Assembly: GCA_965223425.1 (NCBI GenBank)
Contig: OZ245003.1
Location: 1,984,001 to 2,048,000, forward strand
Length of the DNA: 64,000 bases
DNA from: Nitrosopumilus sp.
GTDB taxonomy: Archaea; Thermoproteota; Nitrososphaeria; Nitrososphaerales; Nitrosopumilaceae
Direction: 5' to 3'
Positions 1-50,991 of the stretch are shown here, in pieces. The number at the start of each line of letters is the position of its first letter. Position 1 is the stretch's first letter. Made by a program: the position numbers and the translations under genes. The notes below the pieces were generated by a model. The model had not been told where the DNA came from, did not search any database, and saw nothing but the letters and a program-made list of their open reading frames with translations.

Positions 1-55
1 CTGCCATGGCCAAAATGACTGTTTTTTACGCTTGAATTCAAATTTTGCTACAGGA

Positions 56-1346
56 GGTTCTGTGAAGTTATCGGGAGTTACATGTCAATTCCCAAAATGT
101 ACAAGCCTCCAAACCGCAAGATATTCGCTGAAAGCGATAAAGCCAATATCACAGAAATATGCGCCGAACTCTGACCTAATGGATATGGCGGCTACATTCA
201 CAAAGATGGCCAATCATTGCATCAAGATAGGGTTGAAAGAAGACACTCACGATATGAAGAGGCTGTCCATGTTATGTTGTCATGAATTGCGTAACTATGG
301 CATTTTATCAACATACAAACTAAATGCAATATCAAGAGCTGCAGGCATATTATCAAACAGAAAACAATCAGTCAAACGAGGTGTCAGAATAAGAGGCCCA
401 ATAGTCAAAAATCCCTTTATGACAAACTGTTACGGCATAAAACACAACGGTGCACTACTAACAATCCCATACAAGAAACATAACCCAATCAACATTTTAC
501 TCAACGATCACACCCAAAAAATCCTGTCTGATCCCGCCCTGACGGTGCGCTCGTTTTCACTGACTGCCCTCAACATCAGTCTTTGTGTTTCAAAAAAAGT
601 ACAAGAGATAGAGTGCACCAAGAAAGTTGGAATAGACAGAAACCTAAGAAATGTGACGTGTGGGAGCGAGGAAGGGGTGACAGTCTGCAAGACAAACAAA
701 CTGTTATCCATAAAGGAGAACACAGTACACGCCAGGGCAGGCTTCCACAGAAATGACCGCAGGAAGAAAAATCAGTTCTGGAAGATAAAACAGCGAAGAC
801 TGACCAATAGAACAAAACAATACATCCACAGAATATCAAAGGATATTGTGGATAATGCCGTCAAAGAAAAGGCTGCAACCGTTCTAGAAAACCTGAAAGG
901 AATTAGAAAACTCTACAAAAAAGGAAATGGTCAGGGCAACAAGTACAGGCGCAGATTGAACGGGTGGCAATTCTACGAGCTGCAACGCCAAATAGAATAC
1001 AAAGCCCGATGGGTCGGGCTCCCGCCAGTCGAGACAGTAGACCCAAGAAACACGAGCACGCAGCGTCCGCAATGCGGAAAGAGACTCCAAGAGGACATGC
1101 AACAGCATCGTAAACTGTCGTGTAATAATTGCGGTTTGTTTATGGACAGGGATATTGTCGCTGCCATGAACAACATATCACGCAAGCTGCCCCCCAGGTT
1201 TAGGGGCAGTAGAGATGACATATGTGAAGCGCAGTCCGGCACTTTTGAGCCGGCGATGACGGAATCCGGCACACCATTGGCAATCCGAATAGCCGATATG
1301 TCAAAGTCGAGTTATGGGGGTTAACTCCCGATAACTTCACAGAACC
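56..1346 (+). mobile_element. Non-autonomous tnpB-only element with 25-bp TIRs and 8-bp TSD (copy 1)
   Basis: Left end GGTTCTGTGAAGTTATCGGGAGTTA (56-80) is the exact reverse complement of TAACTCCCGATAACTTCACAGAACC (1322-1346). CTACAGGA flanks both sides (48-55, 1347-1354). A near-identical copy of equal length lies at 49639-50929. Confidence 0.93.
179..1324 (+). CDS. tnpB: RNA-guided endonuclease TnpB family protein (zinc-finger Cys replaced by Arg)
   Basis: RuvC motifs VGIDRN, VLENL and DRDIVAAMN; W-x-F-Y-E-L-Q-x-x-I-E-Y-K-A motif; TSTQRPQCG...CNNCG (copy 2 has TSTQCPQCG). The ORF-track start (32) lies outside the element; the true start is probably CTG 128 or ATG 179. Confidence 0.9.
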   Translation: MDMAATFTKMANHCIKIGLKEDTHDMKRLSMLCCHELRNYGILSTYKLNAISRAAGILSNRKQSVKRGVRIRGPIVKNPFMTNCYGIKHNGALLTIPYKKHNPINILLNDHTQKILSDPALTVRSFSLTALNISLCVSKKVQEIECTKKVGIDRNLRNVTCGSEEGVTVCKTNKLLSIKENTVHARAGFHRNDRRKKNQFWKIKQRRLTNRTKQYIHRISKDIVDNAVKEKAATVLENLKGIRKLYKKGNGQGNKYRRRLNGWQFYELQRQIEYKARWVGLPPVETVDPRNTSTQRPQCGKRLQEDMQQHRKLSCNNCGLFMDRDIVAAMNNISRKLPPRFRGSRDDICEAQSGTFEPAMTESGTPLAIRIADMSKSSYGG

Positions 1347-1390
1347 CTACAGGAATAAGGTTTTTATGTTAAAATCCGTGTTTCCGAATT

Positions 1391-44396: not shown

Positions 44397-44485
44397 ACAC
44401 AGTATAAGATAGGATCAAAGAAGAATATTACTATTAAAAATAAGGTTATGTCGGGTTATCAAGACCTGAAAATTTAGATTGAATT

Positions 44486-45587
44486 TTACTTGTGTAAGCT
44501 GGCATTTTGAATTATGGTTTTCCATCTGTTCTTACCATCAATTTTGATCAATGCTTCCTCAGCTGGAGTTTTACCCTTGAGAGATCCATGCTTTTTTGTA
44601 AAGTTACAGTATCTTTCATTCCATCAAGAATAGGTGTTTTCATTTTCTTTAGTCCTCAGAACACTTTCTCTCTGTCTCTAATCTCACCATTCAAATGCTC
44701 CATTTTGTTGTTATTCATATCTTTTTGAATGTGAGTATGTCTGAGTGAGCAGTCTTTTTTCCAAATATTTTCTTTGAGGCTTTAGAATAGGCTGGTAATC
44801 CGTCTGCGATAAAATGAGTTGGATTCTTGTCTATTGATTCTTTTGTGAGTTTCAATAGATTGTCTGCATTATGCTGAAACTTTGTATCTGTCATGTCACT
44901 AGCCAACCAGTAGCGAGTGTCATCATCCATACTAGCAAATAGATACTTTTGCTTTCCTACAATCTTTATCCATACCTAGTCTGCTCTAACCCAATTTCCA
45001 GTCCTAGAAACAATTTCGTTAAGATATTTTGAAACCATTGTTGAATACTTGCAAATCCAACCACAGATGGAACTATGATTAACTTCAATCTACAACATCG
45101 CATAATTATTCTCAATGTCTCTGACTGACATTCCTGAATAATACATCTGCAAAGCAACTGTGATTGTAGTGTAATCATACCTCATTTTCTCAAATCCAAA
45201 GTTTGAAGAAAATCTCTTTTTGCAGTCAAGACATTTGTAAATCTGAATATTTCCTTTCTTGTTTTTTCTAATTCCTTTTTTGATTATCTTACCTGAATCA
45301 CAATACTTGCAGAGCTCAAGTTTTGATCTTTCCATGATTCTAAATGTGTTGTTTCTGTAACACTTATTTTTCATAATTATCTATAAAACAATTTTGATAT
45401 GTTTACAATCAGATTTTCTTCTGATATGATCCATATATTCACAAGTTAAACCATTATCTGTTTTTGATACAACATAGAATTTTTCTGGATCAGTTTATGA
45501 TCTAACTCTGAATTTGTTTGATTCAAACTGTGATGCATGACCTGTTGAGTCCATCATTTGTTTTGCTCTTTGTTTTCTTGAATTCAC
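44486..45587 (-). pseudogene. IS6-family (IS240-like) DDE transposase with N-terminal Zn-binding modules
   Basis: Fragments CKYC...CLDC, GMSVRDI, WVRAD*VWIK.VGKQKYLFASMDDDTRY, FIADGLPAY and NNKMEHLNGEIRDR; several stops and frameshifts. Confidence 0.8.
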
Positions 45588-45667
45588 ATATTATATTATA
45601 CGTCCGTATATTTATAATTAATTAAACGCCCGTTTAATTTTTATAGATAATAATAAGATATGAAATA

Positions 45668-45835
45668 TTGACAAGGTGGAAAAAAGATGAAACAGAGTTT
45701 CATGTTGCATTATCTTTTGATGGAACAAGTAGTAAGAGATGTCGTGTTCCAAAACCTATAATCGACATGTTAGGCGATCCAAATACCTTAAAATTTGTCA
45801 TTCGTGGTAATACAATTACTGTGACCTCAGATTAA
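45668..45835 (+). CDS. Small AbrB/MazE-like protein (55 aa), divergent from the transposase
   Basis: Manual translation MTRWKKDETEFHVALSFDGTSSKRCRVPKPIIDMLGDPNTLKFVIRGNTITVTSD. Confidence 0.7.
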   Translation: MTRWKKDETEFHVALSFDGTSSKRCRVPKPIIDMLGDPNTLKFVIRGNTITVTSD

Positions 45836-45847
45836 TTGTGGCTAGGG

Positions 45848-46379
45848 ATTTCTAAAAATCCTGAAATTTCTAAAAATCCTGAAATTTCTAAAAATCCTGA
45901 AATTTCTAAAAATCCTGAAATTTCTAAAAATCCTGAAATTTCTAAAAATCCTGAAATTTCTAAAAATCCTGAAATTTCTAAAAATCCTGAAATTTCTAAA
46001 AATCCTGAAATTTCTAAAAATCCTGAAATTTCTAAAAATCCTGAAATTTCTAAAAATCCTGAAATTTCTAAAAATCCTGAAATTTCTAAAAATCCTGAAA
46101 TTTCTAAAAATCCTGAAATTTCTAAAAATCCTGAAATTTCTAAAAATCCTGAAATTTCTAAAAATCCTGAAATTTCTAAAAATCCTGAAATTTCTAAAAA
46201 TCCTGAAATTTCTAAAAATCCTGAAATTTCTAAAAATCCTGAAATTTCTAAAAATCCTGAAATTTCTAAAAATCCTGAAATTTCTAAAAATCCTGAAATT
46301 TCTAAAAATCCTGAAATTTCTAAAAATCCTGAAATTTCTAAAAATCCTGAAATTTCTAAAAATCCTGAAATTTCTAAAA
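45848..46379. repeat. Perfect 18-bp tandem array, 29 full copies plus a partial unit
   Basis: Unit ATTTCTAAAAATCCTGAA; no spacers or variants seen. Confidence 0.97.
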
Positions 46380-46380
46380 T

Positions 46381-47676
46381 TTATGAACTTGGGGCATTTT
46401 TCGTAAATCCGAGAGGTAGTTTCAAACCCTCTAAAAATTCATGATGATTATAATGCTTAACAAAAAAGAAGAAATTAGGATCAACGATACTTAGCTGTCG
46501 TAAATTGGTATCATAGTCAAAAATTGAGGGAGTAATGCCATGATTTTTTTGGTATGTACTAATTCTATTAAGAAAAATAGTTAAAGCACGATCAAATCTT
46601 TTATTATCACGATTTGGGTGAATTTCTTTTATTGCCTTTCTCAAATCATATACTGATAATCCATTTTTAATTTGCTGCACATCAAAATATGCTAAAACAA
46701 CACGTACAAAAAAATATGGCATCCCTAATCCTTGACTTCCATCTTGAGATTGTCTTGGTTTAGCATCTGCAAATGTTTCAAGTGCTCTGTGGAATCTACT
46801 TGCATATGAATTAGTGATTTTAGTAATAGCATTTTGTAGATTATCCTTTGTTAATTTTCTTGGATCTCCAGTTTCAATTATGTGGGCATCATAACAACAT
46901 TCCTTGCATAATTCTTGTAGCATTCCAACATTCCCAAATGATTCTTTGATGAGATCATTTTTAATCTTACTCATATCTATGTTAAGTGATTCCCCACCTA
47001 GCTTGATTATTTCCTGTAAATGTTCTTCTGTCCAAGGTTCTACAGGTAATTCAATTATCCTGTCTTGTAAATCTCCATTATACTGAATTAGTCTATTTCT
47101 TTCTCTCCAAATTCCTAGAATTACTACCCTGACATTAATATCTTGAAATGTTCTTAAATCAAAAGCAAATAATCTTTGTTCTTTCTCTTCTAAGTAATGA
47201 AAATTTTCAAGTATGATGACTTTTTCAGGAAAGTGTTTTTTTATTATCTCTGCTATGTCTTGTGCACCATTAACGTCTATTTGTAAATCAGAATTTGTCT
47301 CTCGTTCATCTGTGGATTTTTCAACCTCCATTCCTGCTTCGGCCAACATGGGAATTTTTACTTTAAAATTAAATTTAGCTTTGGTATTGTCTTCATTTTC
47401 AATTGAGCTACTAGATTGAATTGTAATCTCTAATTTTTTGAGAATGGTTTTGTAAATATCATGTAAATTTATTGTTGGAGAACATTGAACTATAACTTTA
47501 TTTTCCGATATTATATGGGCATTTAGAAGTGTGGTTTTTCCTTGTTTAGATGAGCCATAGACTACAAGTTGCCTTTTTTGGTCAAATGCTTTCTTAAAAC
47601 AGTCATCTATTTCTTGCCTTGACACATATGTTGATAGATCATCATTAATTACTCCAAAAACTTTTTCTAATCTCAC
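46381..47676 (-). CDS. P-loop NTPase (STAND/AAA-like), possible defence protein
   Basis: YVSR, Walker A VVYGSSKQGKT, Walker B VIILENFH, PVEPW and GNVGMLQELC motifs. Confidence 0.75.
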   Translation of the reverse strand: MRLEKVFGVINDDLSTYVSRQEIDDCFKKAFDQKRQLVVYGSSKQGKTTLLNAHIISENKVIVQCSPTINLHDIYKTILKKLEITIQSSSSIENEDNTKAKFNFKVKIPMLAEAGMEVEKSTDERETNSDLQIDVNGAQDIAEIIKKHFPEKVIILENFHYLEEKEQRLFAFDLRTFQDINVRVVILGIWRERNRLIQYNGDLQDRIIELPVEPWTEEHLQEIIKLGGESLNIDMSKIKNDLIKESFGNVGMLQELCKECCYDAHIIETGDPRKLTKDNLQNAITKITNSYASRFHRALETFADAKPRQSQDGSQGLGMPYFFVRVVLAYFDVQQIKNGLSVYDLRKAIKEIHPNRDNKRFDRALTIFLNRISTYQKNHGITPSIFDYDTNLRQLSIVDPNFFFFVKHYNHHEFLEGLKLPLGFTKNAPSS

Positions 47677-47899
47677 ATGGGCTGTTCATAAAAATTGTAT
47701 TTAAATTAATCATTACTAGATTCATAACTTTGAAGAATTCAATCTAGGTCTCGATAACCTAACATAACCATCACTATAATCCAACAGAACCAAAAATAGA
47801 AAACAGGGGATGATGTTAAATTAGAAACCTTTTGGCAGTGTGCCTTTGGCAAGTTTTGCCGGTTCTGGCGTTTTGGCTTTTATCTCTACTCCTTCAACG

Positions 47900-49126: not shown

Positions 49127-49638
49127 CCTTCAACGCTTAGATTTGCGCCACTAAAACTTCCAAATGTTTTGTCAGGCGGATGATATGCAAGTCTTGCCCT
49201 TGTTGCAAAGTATTGGTCTGATGGCTGTGTGTAGCCAGTAACCTTTGCCTTTTGGGCATTCCAATCAGAGGTGGAAACTTTTCCCACAGGGGCAGTTAAC
49301 CTTACAAAGTATCTGTTAGGTGCCGGAGCATAGCCTGTAACCTTTGCTCTGTAATCATGAAAAGAGCTCGTCGGTGCAGTTCTGTATGCATTTTCTAGCG
49401 CCTCTTGAACTGTTGCCGGTGGTTGCGCTGTAGTTTCTGCCGGCTTTGGTGCCTCTTGTGGTTTTGGGGTTTCTGCGGGCTTTGTCTCAGCTGGCTCTGA
49501 TTCTAGCTGAGTTGCAAGTTGGTTTATTTTTGCTTCTAATTTGGCAATCTTGTTTTCAAGATCTTTTTTAGTTTGCTTTTTAGCAGCTGCCATTAATCTG
49601 GATGAAGATTCTGGGGTTTATGTACATTTGGGTTTATT

Positions 49639-50929
49639 GGTTCTGCGAAGTTATCGGGAGTTATATGTCAATTCCCAAAATGTACAAGCCTCCAAACCGC
49701 AAGATATTCGCTGAAGGCGATAAAGCCAATATCACAGAAATATGCGCCGAACTCTGACCTAATGGATATGGCGGCTACATTCACAAAGATGGCCAATCAT
49801 TGCATCAAGATAGGGTTGAAAGAAGACACTCACAATATGAAGAGGCTGTCCATGTTATGTTATCACGAATTGCGTAACTATGACATTTTATCGTCATACA
49901 AGATATGTGCAATATCAAGAGCTGCAGGCATATTATCAAACAGAAAACAATCAGTCAAACGAGGTGTCAGAATAAGGGACCCAATAGTCAAAAATCCCTT
50001 TATGACAAACTGTTACGGCATAAAACACAACGGTGCACTACTAACAATCCCATACAAGAAGCATAACCCAATCAACATTTTACTCAACGATCACGCCCAA
50101 AAAATCCTGTCTGATCCCGCCCTGACGGTGCGCTCGTTTTCACTGACTGCCCTCAACATCAGTCTTTGTGTTTCAAAAAAAGTACAAGAGATAGAGTGCA
50201 CCAAGAAAGTTGGAATAGACAGAAACCTAAGAAATGTGACGTGTGGGAGCGAGGAAGGGGTGACAGTCTACAAGACAAACAAACTGTTATCCATAAAGGA
50301 GAACACAATACACGCCAGGGCAGGCTTCCACAGAAATGACCGCAGGAAGAAAAATCAGTTCTGCAAGGAAAAACAGAGAAGACTGACTGACAGAGCAAGG
50401 CAGTACATCCACAGAATATCAAAGGATATTGTGGATAATGCCGTCAAAGAAAAGGCTGCAATCGTTCTAGAAAACCTGAAAGGAATTAGAAAACTCTACA
50501 AAAAAGGAAATGGTCAGGGCAACAAGTACAGGCGCAGATTGAACGGGTGGCAATTCTACGAGCTGCAACGCCAAATAGAATACAAAGCCCGATGGGTCGG
50601 GCTCCCGCCAGTCGAATATGTAGACCCAAGAAACACGAGCACGCAGTGTCCGCAATGCGGAAAGAGACTCCAAGAGGACATGCAACAGCATCGTAAACTG
50701 TCGTGTAATAATTGCGGTTTGTTTATGGACAGGGATATTGTCGCTGCCATGAACAACATATCACGCAAGCTGCCCCCCAGGTTTAGGGGCAGTAGAGATG
50801 ACATATGTGAAGCGCAGTCCGGCACTTTTGAGCCGGCGATGACGGAATCCGGCACACCATTGGCAATCCGAATAGTCGATATGTCAAAGTCGAGTTATAG
50901 GGGTTAACTCCCGATAACTTCACAGAACC
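49639..50929 (+). mobile_element. Non-autonomous tnpB-only element with 25-bp TIRs and 8-bp TSD (copy 2)
   Basis: GGTTCTGCGAAGTTATCGGGAGTTA ... TAACTCCCGATAACTTCACAGAACC (24/25 match); TSD GGTTTATT at 49631-38 and 50930-37. Confidence 0.93.
49762..50907 (+). CDS. tnpB: RNA-guided endonuclease TnpB family protein (intact motifs)
   Basis: VGIDRN / VLENL / DRD catalytic triad and CPQC...CNNC. Possible earlier CTG start at 49711. Confidence 0.92.
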   Translation: MDMAATFTKMANHCIKIGLKEDTHNMKRLSMLCYHELRNYDILSSYKICAISRAAGILSNRKQSVKRGVRIRDPIVKNPFMTNCYGIKHNGALLTIPYKKHNPINILLNDHAQKILSDPALTVRSFSLTALNISLCVSKKVQEIECTKKVGIDRNLRNVTCGSEEGVTVYKTNKLLSIKENTIHARAGFHRNDRRKKNQFCKEKQRRLTDRARQYIHRISKDIVDNAVKEKAAIVLENLKGIRKLYKKGNGQGNKYRRRLNGWQFYELQRQIEYKARWVGLPPVEYVDPRNTSTQCPQCGKRLQEDMQQHRKLSCNNCGLFMDRDIVAAMNNISRKLPPRFRGSRDDICEAQSGTFEPAMTESGTPLAIRIVDMSKSSYRG

Positions 50930-50991
50930 GGTTTATTACCACGAACAAAACTTGATCAAGTTTTATATGCACAGATAACATAAGAGTTGTA

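What the first reader, a model, noticed from the sequence alone, without database searches (positions are those of the whole stretch)
56..1346. TnpB carried by a TIR/TSD-bounded, IS6-like DDE element instead of IS200/IS605 ends
Seen: two 1291-bp copies (56-1346 and 49639-50929) contain only tnpB, have 25-bp TIRs (GGTTCTGTGAAGTTATCGGGAGTTA) and different exact 8-bp TSDs (CTACAGGA, GGTTTATT). Known: canonical tnpB hosts (IS200/IS605 with Y1 TnpA, IS607 with a serine recombinase) lack TIRs and make no TSD, while GGTTCTG-type IRs with 8-bp TSDs are typical of IS6-family DDE elements. Inference: an RNA-guided nuclease module has been captured by an archaeal IS6-like system and is mobilised in trans. 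The two 5' flanks share no obvious motif, so the usual TAM-equals-insertion-motif homing logic may not apply. I cannot tell whether this family is already described.
Basis: partly seen in the sequence, partly recalled or inferred. Interest (0 to 1): 0.88.

Follow-up and report, generated by a model that had tools for sequence, protein, structure and literature searches.

The report
TnpB guide-RNA cassette in IS6-like ends
Two 1.3-kb jumping elements in this archaeal genome carry only the RNA-guided nuclease gene tnpB and its guide-RNA scaffold between the ends of an IS6-like transposon, and copies of this family usually sit just after a short TTG/TTA motif, where the nuclease would need its recognition motif.

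Summary
Window 56-1346 and 49639-50929 are 1291-bp copies (97.1% identical) with 25-bp inverted ends and exact 8-bp target duplications. Five related genomes carry the empty site of copy 2 with a single 8-mer.

The genome has no Y1 or serine TnpA. It has IS6-like DDE transposases whose element ends match these ends. The elements are therefore non-autonomous and are probably moved in trans. This is inferred, not shown.

The last ~160 nt form a structured RNA with strong covariation that runs to the element tip. I read it as the omegaRNA scaffold.

In 30 of 47 insertions from five genomes, the 3 nt before the left duplication are TTG or TTA. The mirrored right flank shows this in 4 of 47, and 12 autonomous IS6-like elements show it at 0 of 24 flanks. 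An empty site therefore reads TTR + duplication + right flank, which is TAM + guide.

Both window copies are imperfect. Copy 1 has lost a zinc-finger cysteine and copy 2 has lost its only canonical start codon.

DDE-associated TnpBs have been in print since 2023. I found no paper naming this IS6-like partner or this layout. This scan has noted the same thing on other genomes. I rate it a new variant of a known kind.

The parts
45..47 (+). TTG directly 5' of the left target duplication of copy 1: candidate TAM
   Evidence: Family-wide motif.
48..55 (+). Left 8-bp target-site duplication of copy 1 (CTACAGGA)
56..80 (+). Left terminal inverted repeat of copy 1. It holds the GTG at 62-64, the only canonical in-frame start for the full-length ORF.
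62..1324 (+). tnpB ORF of copy 1 (420 codons from the GTG). The conserved N-terminus begins at 128 (CTG in place of the family's TTG). The first zinc-finger Cys is replaced by Arg (QRPQC against QCPQC in copy 2).
1187..1346 (+). Predicted omegaRNA scaffold of copy 1: hairpin 1, a multibranch domain closed by a long-range stem, a terminal hairpin and a 3' tail ending in GAACC. The 5' limit is not mapped.
1322..1346 (-). Right terminal inverted repeat of copy 1. Its first three bases (1322-1324) are the tnpB stop codon.
1347..1354 (+). Right 8-bp target-site duplication of copy 1. In the model these are the first 8 nt of the guide.
   Evidence: The guide role is inferred.
49628..49630 (+). TTG directly 5' of the left duplication of copy 2: candidate TAM. 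It is present in 4 of the 5 empty sites of relatives; G135 has TTA there.
49631..49638 (+). Left 8-bp target-site duplication of copy 2 (GGTTTATT)
49639..49663 (+). Left terminal inverted repeat of copy 2. It has one mismatch (T to C) that turns the in-frame GTG into GCG.
49645..50907 (+). tnpB frame of copy 2 (420 codons, zinc-finger cysteines intact). The first canonical start is the ATG at 49762 (381 aa), which would drop the conserved N-terminal strand.
50770..50929 (+). Predicted omegaRNA scaffold of copy 2
50905..50929 (-). Right terminal inverted repeat of copy 2
   Evidence: In one search, contigs of other runs leave the window sequence exactly at 49639 and 50929.
50930..50937 (+). Right 8-bp target-site duplication of copy 2. 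In the model this is the start of the guide.
44444..47769 (-). Decayed IS6-like element in the window. It has related ends (GGTTATGT...), transposase remnants at about 44495-45470 broken by stops, and cargo ORFs.

Best explanation
Each copy is a non-autonomous mobile cassette. It holds a tnpB gene and its 3' guide-RNA (omegaRNA) scaffold, packed between the terminal inverted repeats of an archaeal IS6-like DDE transposon.

How it most likely works:
- An IS6-like transposase encoded elsewhere recognises the shared ends and inserts the cassette with an 8-bp staggered cut. This transposase carries extra N-terminal cysteine-rich, zinc-finger-like motifs.
- Transcription through the 3' end gives an RNA whose scaffold ends at the element tip. 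I propose that the last five bases, GAACC, pair with a conserved hairpin loop, GGUUY, as a pseudoknot.
- The guide is therefore the right target duplication plus the right flank.
- Most copies lie directly 3' of TTG or TTA. The uninserted allele therefore reads TTR + duplication + right flank, which is TAM + target. TnpB could cut it, and recombination with a filled copy would restore or spread the element.

What is shown: the ends, the duplications, one empty site, the RNA covariation, the one-sided motif, and purifying selection on tnpB.

What is inferred: trans mobilisation, transcription, the pseudoknot, TTR acting as a TAM, and cleavage.
For: Anatomy and TnpB identity.

Place in the genome:
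- All 14 chromosomal TnpB matches of the genome lie inside elements bounded by these inverted repeats.
- No Y1 or serine recombinase was found.

Link to IS6-like transposases:
- Transposase genes are present. PF13610 scores 42-53 bits against a cut-off of 27. The best NCBIfam model is IS6, at 103-111 bits.
- Their ends share the same tip.
- The end beside the transposase remnant at G000 793017 matches the subfamily-B TnpB element end at 29 of 30 nt.
- In G081 a complete 1970-bp transposase element (L109) shares an unusual 18-nt end variant with one TnpB subfamily.
- 12 complete autonomous elements also make exact 8-bp duplications.

Target duplications:
- 28 of 48 TnpB copies have exact 8-bp duplications, and 30 of 48 have at most 1 mismatch.
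- The empty site of copy 2 is seen in 5 of 6 relatives.

Structured RNA (alignment of 24 sequences):
- 95.9% of cells are paired, against 74.7% in shuffles (0 of 500 shuffles reach it).
- 19 of 28 pairs show changes on both sides.
- Slid controls give 28-45%.
- The proposed loop-tail helix is paired in 97.5% of cells.
- A review states that the 3' end of prokaryotic omegaRNAs forms a pseudoknot with the scaffold (PMC13565253, section 6.2).

Flanking motif:
- T at -3 in 34 of 48, T at -2 in 42 of 48, G or A at -1 in 43 of 48.
- TTR on the left in 30 of 47, against 4 of 47 on the mirrored right flank (Fisher 2e-8). The genome background is 4.2%.
- 0 of 24 flanks of autonomous elements have TTR.
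- Among order-level relatives, T at -2 in 9 of 9 and TTR in 4 of 9.

Selection: tnpB dN/dS between subfamilies is 0.08-0.22 over about 330 codons.
Against: - No experiment and no usable RNA data. Only assembled contigs could be laid, so neither transcription nor RNA ends are shown.
- In this genome no transposase-bearing element has the exact interior of the main subfamily's end. Only one of the three full-length transposase genes has a recognisable pair of ends.
- 0 of 52 IS6-like transposase loci carry a tnpB. The link therefore rests on end similarity and shared duplication length alone.
- The pseudoknot pairs never vary on both sides, so covariation cannot test it.
- 17 of 47 copies lack TTR.
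- TTR copies are not older than the others (Mann-Whitney p = 0.48). Slow loss of TAM-less copies is therefore not supported, and the bias arises at or soon after insertion.
- Autonomous elements show an orientation-specific bias of their own: 8 of 12 duplications begin with TG. The transposase itself may therefore read targets asymmetrically.
- All nine copies of the window's subfamily have CTG in place of the family's TTG start. Copy 2 has no canonical start and copy 1 has lost a zinc-finger cysteine.
- If the transposase copies the element in without excision, as bacterial IS26 does, restorative homing would bring little benefit.
Confidence: 0.68

Rival explanations
1. The anatomy is the same, but the TTR motif is only the target preference of the transposase, or of a transposase subtype that serves these cassettes. 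TnpB plays no part in where copies are found.
For: - Autonomous IS6-like elements show an orientation-specific bias of their own: TG at duplication positions 1-2 in 8 of 12. The transpososome can therefore be asymmetric.
- TTR enrichment is already present in the youngest copies and does not depend on copy age.
- A at -7 in 33 of 48 looks more like a DNA-shape preference than a TAM.
- The window's subfamily spread after losing the family's TTG start.
Against: - 0 of 24 flanks of 12 autonomous elements with the same kind of ends have TTR, against 30 of 47 left flanks of TnpB elements.
- This includes L109, whose end is identical over 18 nt to that of one TnpB subfamily.
- The motif sits where a TAM must sit for a guide that starts at the element tip.
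- It holds across subfamilies with different end interiors.
Confidence: 0.2
2. TnpB, or TnpB bound at TAM sites, takes part in insertion itself. It steers the DDE transposase so that each new copy is born next to a TAM.
For: - The bias is strong (63% against a 4% background).
- It is one-sided and fixed in register.
- It is independent of copy age.

Against: - No known DDE system works this way without dedicated adaptor proteins.
- No such protein or interaction was sought or seen.
- The window's subfamily spread with an impaired start codon.
Confidence: 0.1
3. The tnpB genes are decaying passengers without function. The elements are simply MITE-like derivatives that happen to carry them.
For: - Both window copies carry a defect.
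- Two other copies are interrupted by IS630-like insertions.
- Several copies in G081 have internal stops upstream of the conserved start.
Against: - dN/dS of 0.08-0.22 between subfamilies.
- A conserved TTG start in 30 of 30 copies outside the window's subfamily that carry the searched motif.
- Compensatory changes that keep the RNA structure.
- The loss of TTG in the window's subfamily comes together with a TAA-to-CAA change that opens the frame up to a GTG.
Confidence: 0.05

Closest known systems
DDE-transposase-associated TnpB branches (DDE-1 to DDE-6) and solo TnpBs with the same ends. Altae-Tran et al. 2023, PMC10691335: section 9 read in full, passages.
   Same: - TnpB lies between inverted terminal repeats of a DDE transposon.
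- The 3' end of tnpB is close to the transposon end.
- Solo copies are thought to be moved in trans.
   Different: - The main text names only IS630 as a partner. IS6 and IS240 occur 0 times as whole words.
- A 2026 review lists ISL2, IS630 and IS1031 as partners (PMC13565253).
- Here no transposase gene was seen next to tnpB in 52 transposase loci.
- The TAM-like motif lying outside a sequence-unspecific 8-bp duplication is not described in the text I could read.
- The supplements were closed and may list this clade.
IS200/IS605 (including tnpB-only IS1341-type) and IS607 elements
   Same: - A TnpB plus 3' omegaRNA module.
- A TAM-like motif on the 5' flank and the guide on the 3' flank.
   Different: - These elements have 25-bp inverted repeats and 8-bp duplications.
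- No Y1 or serine TnpA is present in the genome.
- The motif is separated from the element by the duplication.
IS6/IS26 family, and the archaeal 'IS6-like' group that Harmer and Hall proposed to separate from it. PMC6807381 and PMC7986276: passages only.
   Same: - 8-bp duplications.
- GG tip and a CTGT motif in the ends.
- A DDE_Tnp_IS240 catalytic domain in the partner transposase.
   Different: - The cassette has no transposase.
- Partner elements are 1.97-3.5 kb, with longer transposases of 345-400 aa that carry N-terminal cysteine-rich motifs.
- The NCBIfam IS6 score is below its cut-off.
- The reviews mention one passenger-carrying member and two MITEs, and no TnpB.
Fanzor elements in eukaryotic DDE transposons (review PMC13565253, section 6.2)
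   Same: An RNA-guided TnpB relative carried by transposons with inverted repeats and target duplications.
   Different: - In Fanzor the 5' duplication is part of the TAM and the 3' duplication is part of the scaffold.
- Here the duplication is sequence-unspecific. It would lie inside the target and guide, with the TAM upstream of it.

Membership tests
TnpB (OMEGA RNA-guided nuclease) | Match to curated TnpB family models above their cut-offs | tested here: met
   Copy 2: NF040570 at 119.4 bits (cut-off 100) and PF07282 at 73.4 bits (cut-off 26.3). Copy 1: PF07282 at 65.8 bits.. PDB sequence hits to Cas12f and TnpB chains down to E = 6e-11.
TnpB (OMEGA RNA-guided nuclease) | RuvC Asp-Glu-Asp triad and a CxxC...CxxC zinc finger | tested here: inconclusive
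   The motifs GIDRN, LENLKG, MDRD and CPQC...CNNC are visible in copy 2. Assigning them to the catalytic residues rests on a recalled pattern and comes from no call. Copy 1 has RPQC.
TnpB (OMEGA RNA-guided nuclease) | Structured omegaRNA that overlaps the 3' end of tnpB and runs to the element end | tested here: met
   Covariation on 24 sequences: 95.9% of cells paired and 19 of 28 pairs compensatory. Transcription is not shown. No Rfam family matches.
TnpB (OMEGA RNA-guided nuclease) | TAM-dependent, RNA-guided DNA cleavage | not testable with these tools
   Only the flank statistics bear on it: TTR in 30 of 47.
IS200/IS605 (including IS1341-type) | Y1 HUH transposase in the element or genome | tested here: not met
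   0 PF01797 matches in a genome that is 99.99% complete. The control genomes did give matches.
IS200/IS605 (including IS1341-type) | No terminal inverted repeats and no target duplication | tested here: not met
   25-bp inverted repeats and exact 8-bp duplications. The empty site has a single 8-mer.
IS607 | Serine recombinase TnpA | tested here: not met
   0 PF00239 matches in the genome.
IS6/IS26 family | 8-bp target duplication | tested here: met
   28 of 48 TnpB copies are exact. 12 of 12 complete partner elements are exact.
IS6/IS26 family | Short inverted repeats with a GG tip and a cTGTt motif (as described in PMC7986276) | tested here: met
   GGTTCTGT... stands at both ends in all subfamilies. 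The review's 'caaa' motif is not present.
IS6/IS26 family | Encodes an IS6-family DDE transposase | tested here: not met
   The cassette has no transposase. For partner transposases, PF13610 is above its cut-off but NF033587 scores 102.8-111.2 bits against a cut-off of 125. I therefore call them 'IS6-like' and do not file them as members.
IS6/IS26 family | Copy-in transposition through a cointegrate | not testable with these tools
   Reciprocal swapping of flanks between inverted copies (G000 1325308 and 1451399) fits either this mechanism or homologous recombination.
DDE-associated TnpB (Altae-Tran 2023) | TnpB enclosed by inverted terminal repeats of a DDE transposon | tested here: met
DDE-associated TnpB (Altae-Tran 2023) | DDE transposase gene beside tnpB in at least some members, and placement in one of the branches DDE-1 to DDE-6 | tested here: inconclusive
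   0 of 52 IS6-like transposase loci hold a tnpB. Branch placement needs the paper's supplements, which were closed.

The most novel reading that the evidence does not exclude
The RNA-guided nuclease and the DDE transposase are functionally coupled at the moment of insertion. TnpB's reading of the TAM steers or immediately filters IS6-like insertions, so that nearly every new copy is born next to a TTR with its own duplication as the start of its guide. This would be a minimal archaeal route to 'self-arming' transposition that needs no sequence-specific transposase.
Probability: 0.15. Interest if true: 0.85.

Novelty: new variant of a known kind. Interest (0 to 1): 0.6.

Why it matters
TnpB is thought to pay its way by restoring elements that excise without a scar. 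On that view its rarity on DDE transposons follows from the fact that a DDE enzyme with no target specificity cannot guarantee a TAM (review PMC13565253, section 6.2).

This family shows a large, active, purifying-selected lineage where that problem appears to be solved. The lineage has at least 34 near-full-length copies in one related genome. Solo cassettes with IS6-like ends were found in 9 of 29 loci sampled across the order. The TAM-like motif lies outside an unspecific 8-bp duplication and is present at about two thirds of insertions.

This makes a concrete question testable: does the bias come from targeting, from rapid filtering, or from the transposase?

The family also offers compact (about 397 aa) TnpBs with a short predicted TAM. 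They come from archaea whose homologues the source databases name as Nitrosopumilus and its relatives.

Tried and rejected
Tried without a useful result:
- RNA evidence. One RNA run (X1, a small share of the words) and three other runs were laid. All are assembled contigs, so expression, RNA ends and strand cannot be read. The higher depth of the 3' part in X1 is not usable.
- Empty alleles in those runs: none appeared.
- Empty site of copy 1: the left flank is not conserved in 5 of 5 relatives examined.
- Rfam: no family matched; the only hit is a chance lncRNA match at E = 0.1.
- Second targets for the guides of 12 G000 copies: only matches with 2-3 mismatches, and none stands out.
- Pairing between the conserved UGUGAAG and the CUUCACA inside the end: perfect in the window's subfamily. 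Checked by eye on the alignment, it is not kept where the end varies, so I rejected it.
- A guide lying inside the element, right after the conserved GUCGAG block: rejected. The flank motif sits in register with the element tip, and the variable stretch folds as a terminal hairpin.
- TTG as an in-frame start across the duplication: rejected, because it is out of frame.
- Copy age against TTR: no difference.
- TIR search around the three TnpB genes on contig C2: none at 13 of 16 or better.
- 14 of 17 (no IS6-type pair either in the wider IR search) and 20 of 30 IS6-like transposase loci gave no recognisable pair of ends within 1.5 kb.
- 5 of 34 G081 loci and 1 of 8 other loci gave no end pair and were left out of the 48-copy table.
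- One G000 copy was dropped from the test because it shares its left flank with another copy.

Literature searches for this pairing. Whole-word look-ups in PMC10691335. No paper found names IS6-like ends with TnpB. Supplements were closed and may bear on this claim.
Full report
**1. Observation**

The window holds two 1291-bp copies, at 56-1346 and 49639-50929. They differ at 38 positions (97.1% identity), and only 2 of these differences lie in the last 172 nt.

The 25-nt end occurs four times in the window at up to 3 mismatches, in inverted pairs. None was expected in 100 shuffles. The left end of copy 2 has one mismatch.

Exact 8-mers flank both copies: CTACAGGA and GGTTTATT.

Each copy has one long frame. 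It starts inside the left end and stops on the first three bases of the right end. It matches TnpB models above their cut-offs.

**2. The duplication is made on insertion**

I searched the right flank of copy 2 in 121 genomes of the genus. I then compared both flanks with six of the loci returned.
- In 5 of 6 (G101, G052, G135, G087, G056) the flanks are contiguous around a single 8-mer. In four of the five it is preceded by the same TTTG (in G135 by TTTA).
- The sixth (G117) has another left flank.
- For copy 1 the left flank is not conserved in 5 of 5 relatives examined, so no empty site was found.
- Contigs of other public runs leave the window sequence exactly at 49639 and 50929. This fits the same element ends at other sites.

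**3. Whole genome**

The assembly has 2 contigs and is 99.99% complete. It has 17 matches to the TnpB TNB domain.
- The 14 on the chromosome all lie inside pairs of these ends. Nine are plain 1.29-kb copies of the window's subfamily. One is a more divergent copy (654737). Two copies are interrupted by IS630-like insertions. Two belong to a second subfamily with another end interior.
- There is also a 344-bp deletion derivative, along with MITE-sized elements of 86-141 bp.
- Of the 22 end pairs tabulated, 10 have exact 8-bp duplications.
- Two inverted copies (1325308 and 1451399) carry each other's flanks reciprocally, which marks an inversion between them.
- The genome has no Y1 transposase and no serine recombinase.

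**4. The partner transposase**

PF13610 (DDE_Tnp_IS240) matches 8 places in the genome. A tblastn search with two of the encoded proteins finds three full-length genes and at least ten fragments, one of them in the window.

The proteins have the IS240 DDE domain above its cut-off. Their best NCBIfam model is the IS6 transposase, covered end to end but below its cut-off: 103-111 bits against 125. They carry extra N-terminal cysteine-rich motifs. I call these SWIM-like from memory, and no call confirms that name.

About 40-70 bp past the 3' end of these genes stands an end of the same type, GGTTCTGT....
- The end beside the remnant at 793017 agrees at 29 of 30 nt with the ends of the second TnpB subfamily.
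- In G081 a complete 1970-bp transposase element (L109, exact duplication) shares an unusual 18-nt end variant with one TnpB subfamily of that genome.
- In all, 12 complete autonomous elements of 1.97-3.5 kb with exact 8-bp duplications were recovered: 3 of 17 loci and 9 of 30 loci.
- All 4 other genomes of the genus in which I had seen TnpB cassettes have transposase matches. In G004 the match is only a fragment.
- Of the 9 order-level genomes with cassettes, 4 (G280, G324, G266, G139) appear in the strict list. That list holds 57 of 251 genomes at E <= 1e-80, and the count includes one genome flagged as unpublished.
- No tnpB lies in any of the 52 transposase loci.

Mobilisation in trans is therefore the best reading. 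It rests on shared ends and shared duplication length, not on an experiment. In this genome no transposase-bearing element has the exact end interior of the window's subfamily.

**5. Spread**

- Homologues at E <= 1e-20 occur in 12 of 121 genomes of the genus.
- G081 alone has 34 near-full-length copies in several subfamilies.
- At order level, 43 of 251 genomes have a homologue at E <= 1e-40.
- Of 29 loci taken from them, 9 are solo tnpB elements of 1.24-1.43 kb between GGTTCTG...CAGAACC ends. Three have exact duplications and two have a single mismatch.
- The protein database holds 1892 relatives at E <= 1e-10. Sources name them TnpB or transposase of Nitrosopumilus, Nitrosarchaeum, Nitrosotenuis and Nitrosotalea.

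**6. The 3' RNA**

Downstream of the last nuclease motif the DNA is conserved in a pattern typical of RNA.

I aligned 24 sequences from nine subfamilies and nine order-level elements and named a structure on the alignment. It has hairpin 1, a long-range stem closing two inner hairpins, and a loop-tail helix.
- 95.9% of cells form standard pairs, against 74.7% in shuffles (0 of 500 shuffles reach it).
- 19 of 28 pairs change on both sides.
- Slid controls give 28-45%.
- The single-sequence fold agrees with this structure.

After the long-range stem comes a stretch of variable length that folds with the inner part of the right end into a terminal hairpin. Eight bases, ACAGAACC, are left as a tail.

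The loop of hairpin 1 is GGUUU or GGUUC in all 24 sequences and can pair with the terminal GAACC (97.5% of cells). These pairs never vary on both sides, so the pseudoknot is a proposal. It fits the statement that the 3' end of prokaryotic omegaRNAs forms a pseudoknot with the scaffold (PMC13565253, section 6.2).

No Rfam family matches.

**7. The flank motif**

I oriented 48 copies by tnpB: 12 from G000, 29 from G081 and 7 from G021, G103 and G004. The three bases before the left duplication are strongly biased:
- T at -3 in 34 of 48.
- T at -2 in 42 of 48.
- G or A at -1 in 43 of 48.

After dropping one duplicated flank:
- TTG or TTA stands there in 30 of 47, against 4 of 47 on the mirrored right flank (Fisher 2e-8). 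The genome background is 4.2%.
- Among the 28 copies with exact duplications the counts are 19 and 1.
- The 12 autonomous elements have TTR at 0 of 24 flanks.
- Order-level cassettes have T at -2 in 9 of 9 and TTR in 4 of 9.

The geometry is what homing needs. The empty site reads TTR, then the 8-mer, then the right flank. An RNA that ends at the element tip carries the 8-mer and the right flank as its guide. At the filled site the left junction matches only 8 nt of the guide, and the right junction is preceded by ACC.

**8. What makes the bias**

Copies with and without TTR do not differ in nearest-neighbour identity: 95.8% (n = 30) against 93.3% (n = 17), p = 0.48. By my count from the rows, 11 of the 17 youngest copies have TTR. 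The bias is therefore set at or soon after insertion.

Three readings remain open:
- fast filtering by TnpB-driven homing;
- coupling of TnpB to insertion;
- a preference of the transposase.

The third reading is weakened by the autonomous elements lacking TTR. It is kept alive by their own bias: 8 of 12 duplications start with TG in the transposase orientation.

**9. Is tnpB kept?**

Between subfamilies, dN/dS is 0.08-0.22 over about 330 codons outside the RNA region.

A TTG start directly before the conserved N-terminus is present in 30 of 30 copies outside the window's subfamily that carry the searched motif. It usually has a stop a few codons upstream.

All nine copies of the window's subfamily have CTG there, together with a TAA-to-CAA change that opens the frame up to a GTG inside the left end. 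Seven of the nine keep that GTG. Copy 2 and one other copy have GCG.

Copy 1 has Arg in place of the first zinc-finger Cys. Neither window copy is therefore the best choice for an assay.

**10. What is known**

Altae-Tran et al. 2023 describe six TnpB branches associated with DDE transposases. All have inverted terminal repeats, and solo TnpBs with the same ends are probably moved in trans. The main text names only IS630 (PMC10691335: section 9 read in full; passages).

A 2026 review lists ISL2, IS630 and IS1031. It argues that the rarity of DDE partners may reflect inflexible TAM recognition (PMC13565253: section 6.2 read in full; passages).

Two IS6 reviews mention no TnpB (PMC7986276 and PMC6807381, passages only).

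Five searches found no paper on this pairing. The supplements were closed.

This scan had already noted the same layout and the TTG/TTA motif in other genomes. I read those notes after reaching my own reading, and I do not count them as independent evidence.

**11. Verdict**

This is a real, active family. It is a new variant of a known kind: DDE-borne TnpB, here with an IS6-like partner acting in trans, and with the TAM placed outside an unspecific target duplication. Interest 0.6.

Noticed in passing
window 44444-47769: A decayed IS6-like element with ends GGTTATGT... It holds transposase remnants broken by stops, a 431-aa ORF (46381-47676, minus strand) and an ORF made of a tandem six-residue repeat, PEISKN (45836-46444). 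Its right end abuts a fragment of another IS6-like end.
   Followed up: partly
G000:C1 1325308-1326598 and 1451399-1452689: Two inverted TnpB copies carry each other's flanking 8-mers reciprocally. This marks an inversion of about 126 kb between them, by recombination or by intramolecular replicative transposition.
   Followed up: partly
12 autonomous IS6-like elements (loci L109, L110, L120, L171, L172, L175, L178, L181, L182, L185, L187, L189): In the transposase orientation, 8 of 12 target duplications begin with TG (L178 and L181 look like the same site in two genomes). This is an orientation-specific bias, different from the TTR of the TnpB cassettes.
   Followed up: no
left flanks of the 48 TnpB copies, position -7: A stands at -7 in 33 of 48 copies, with A also frequent at -8 and -6. 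This is a second, weaker feature upstream of TTR. 5 of 8 autonomous left flanks that I looked at by eye also have A there.
   Followed up: no
G000:C1 594234-596770 and 2292571-2294969: Two TnpB copies are interrupted by different IS630-like insertions, with transposase ORFs of 369 and 339 aa. The family name is recalled from the look of the proteins and was not tested.
   Followed up: no
G000:C2 36358-37485, 40172-41364 and 46793-47890: Three further TnpB genes on the 123-kb second contig (47% G+C against 41%) have no inverted ends at 13 of 16 or better. They are a different kind of TnpB locus.
   Followed up: partly
about 20 places in G000:C1 (for example 1431054, 1092435, 1980036): The first 28 codons of the open frame before the transposase at 258927 match about 20 other loci at 63-93% identity. 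This looks like an unrelated short repeat of about 84 bp.
   Followed up: no
G000:C1 256390-260474 and 1860917-1862710: Two different elements with IS6-type ends are flanked by the same 8-mer, GTAAATTG (one of them with 1 mismatch). This may be chance or a preferred target.
   Followed up: no
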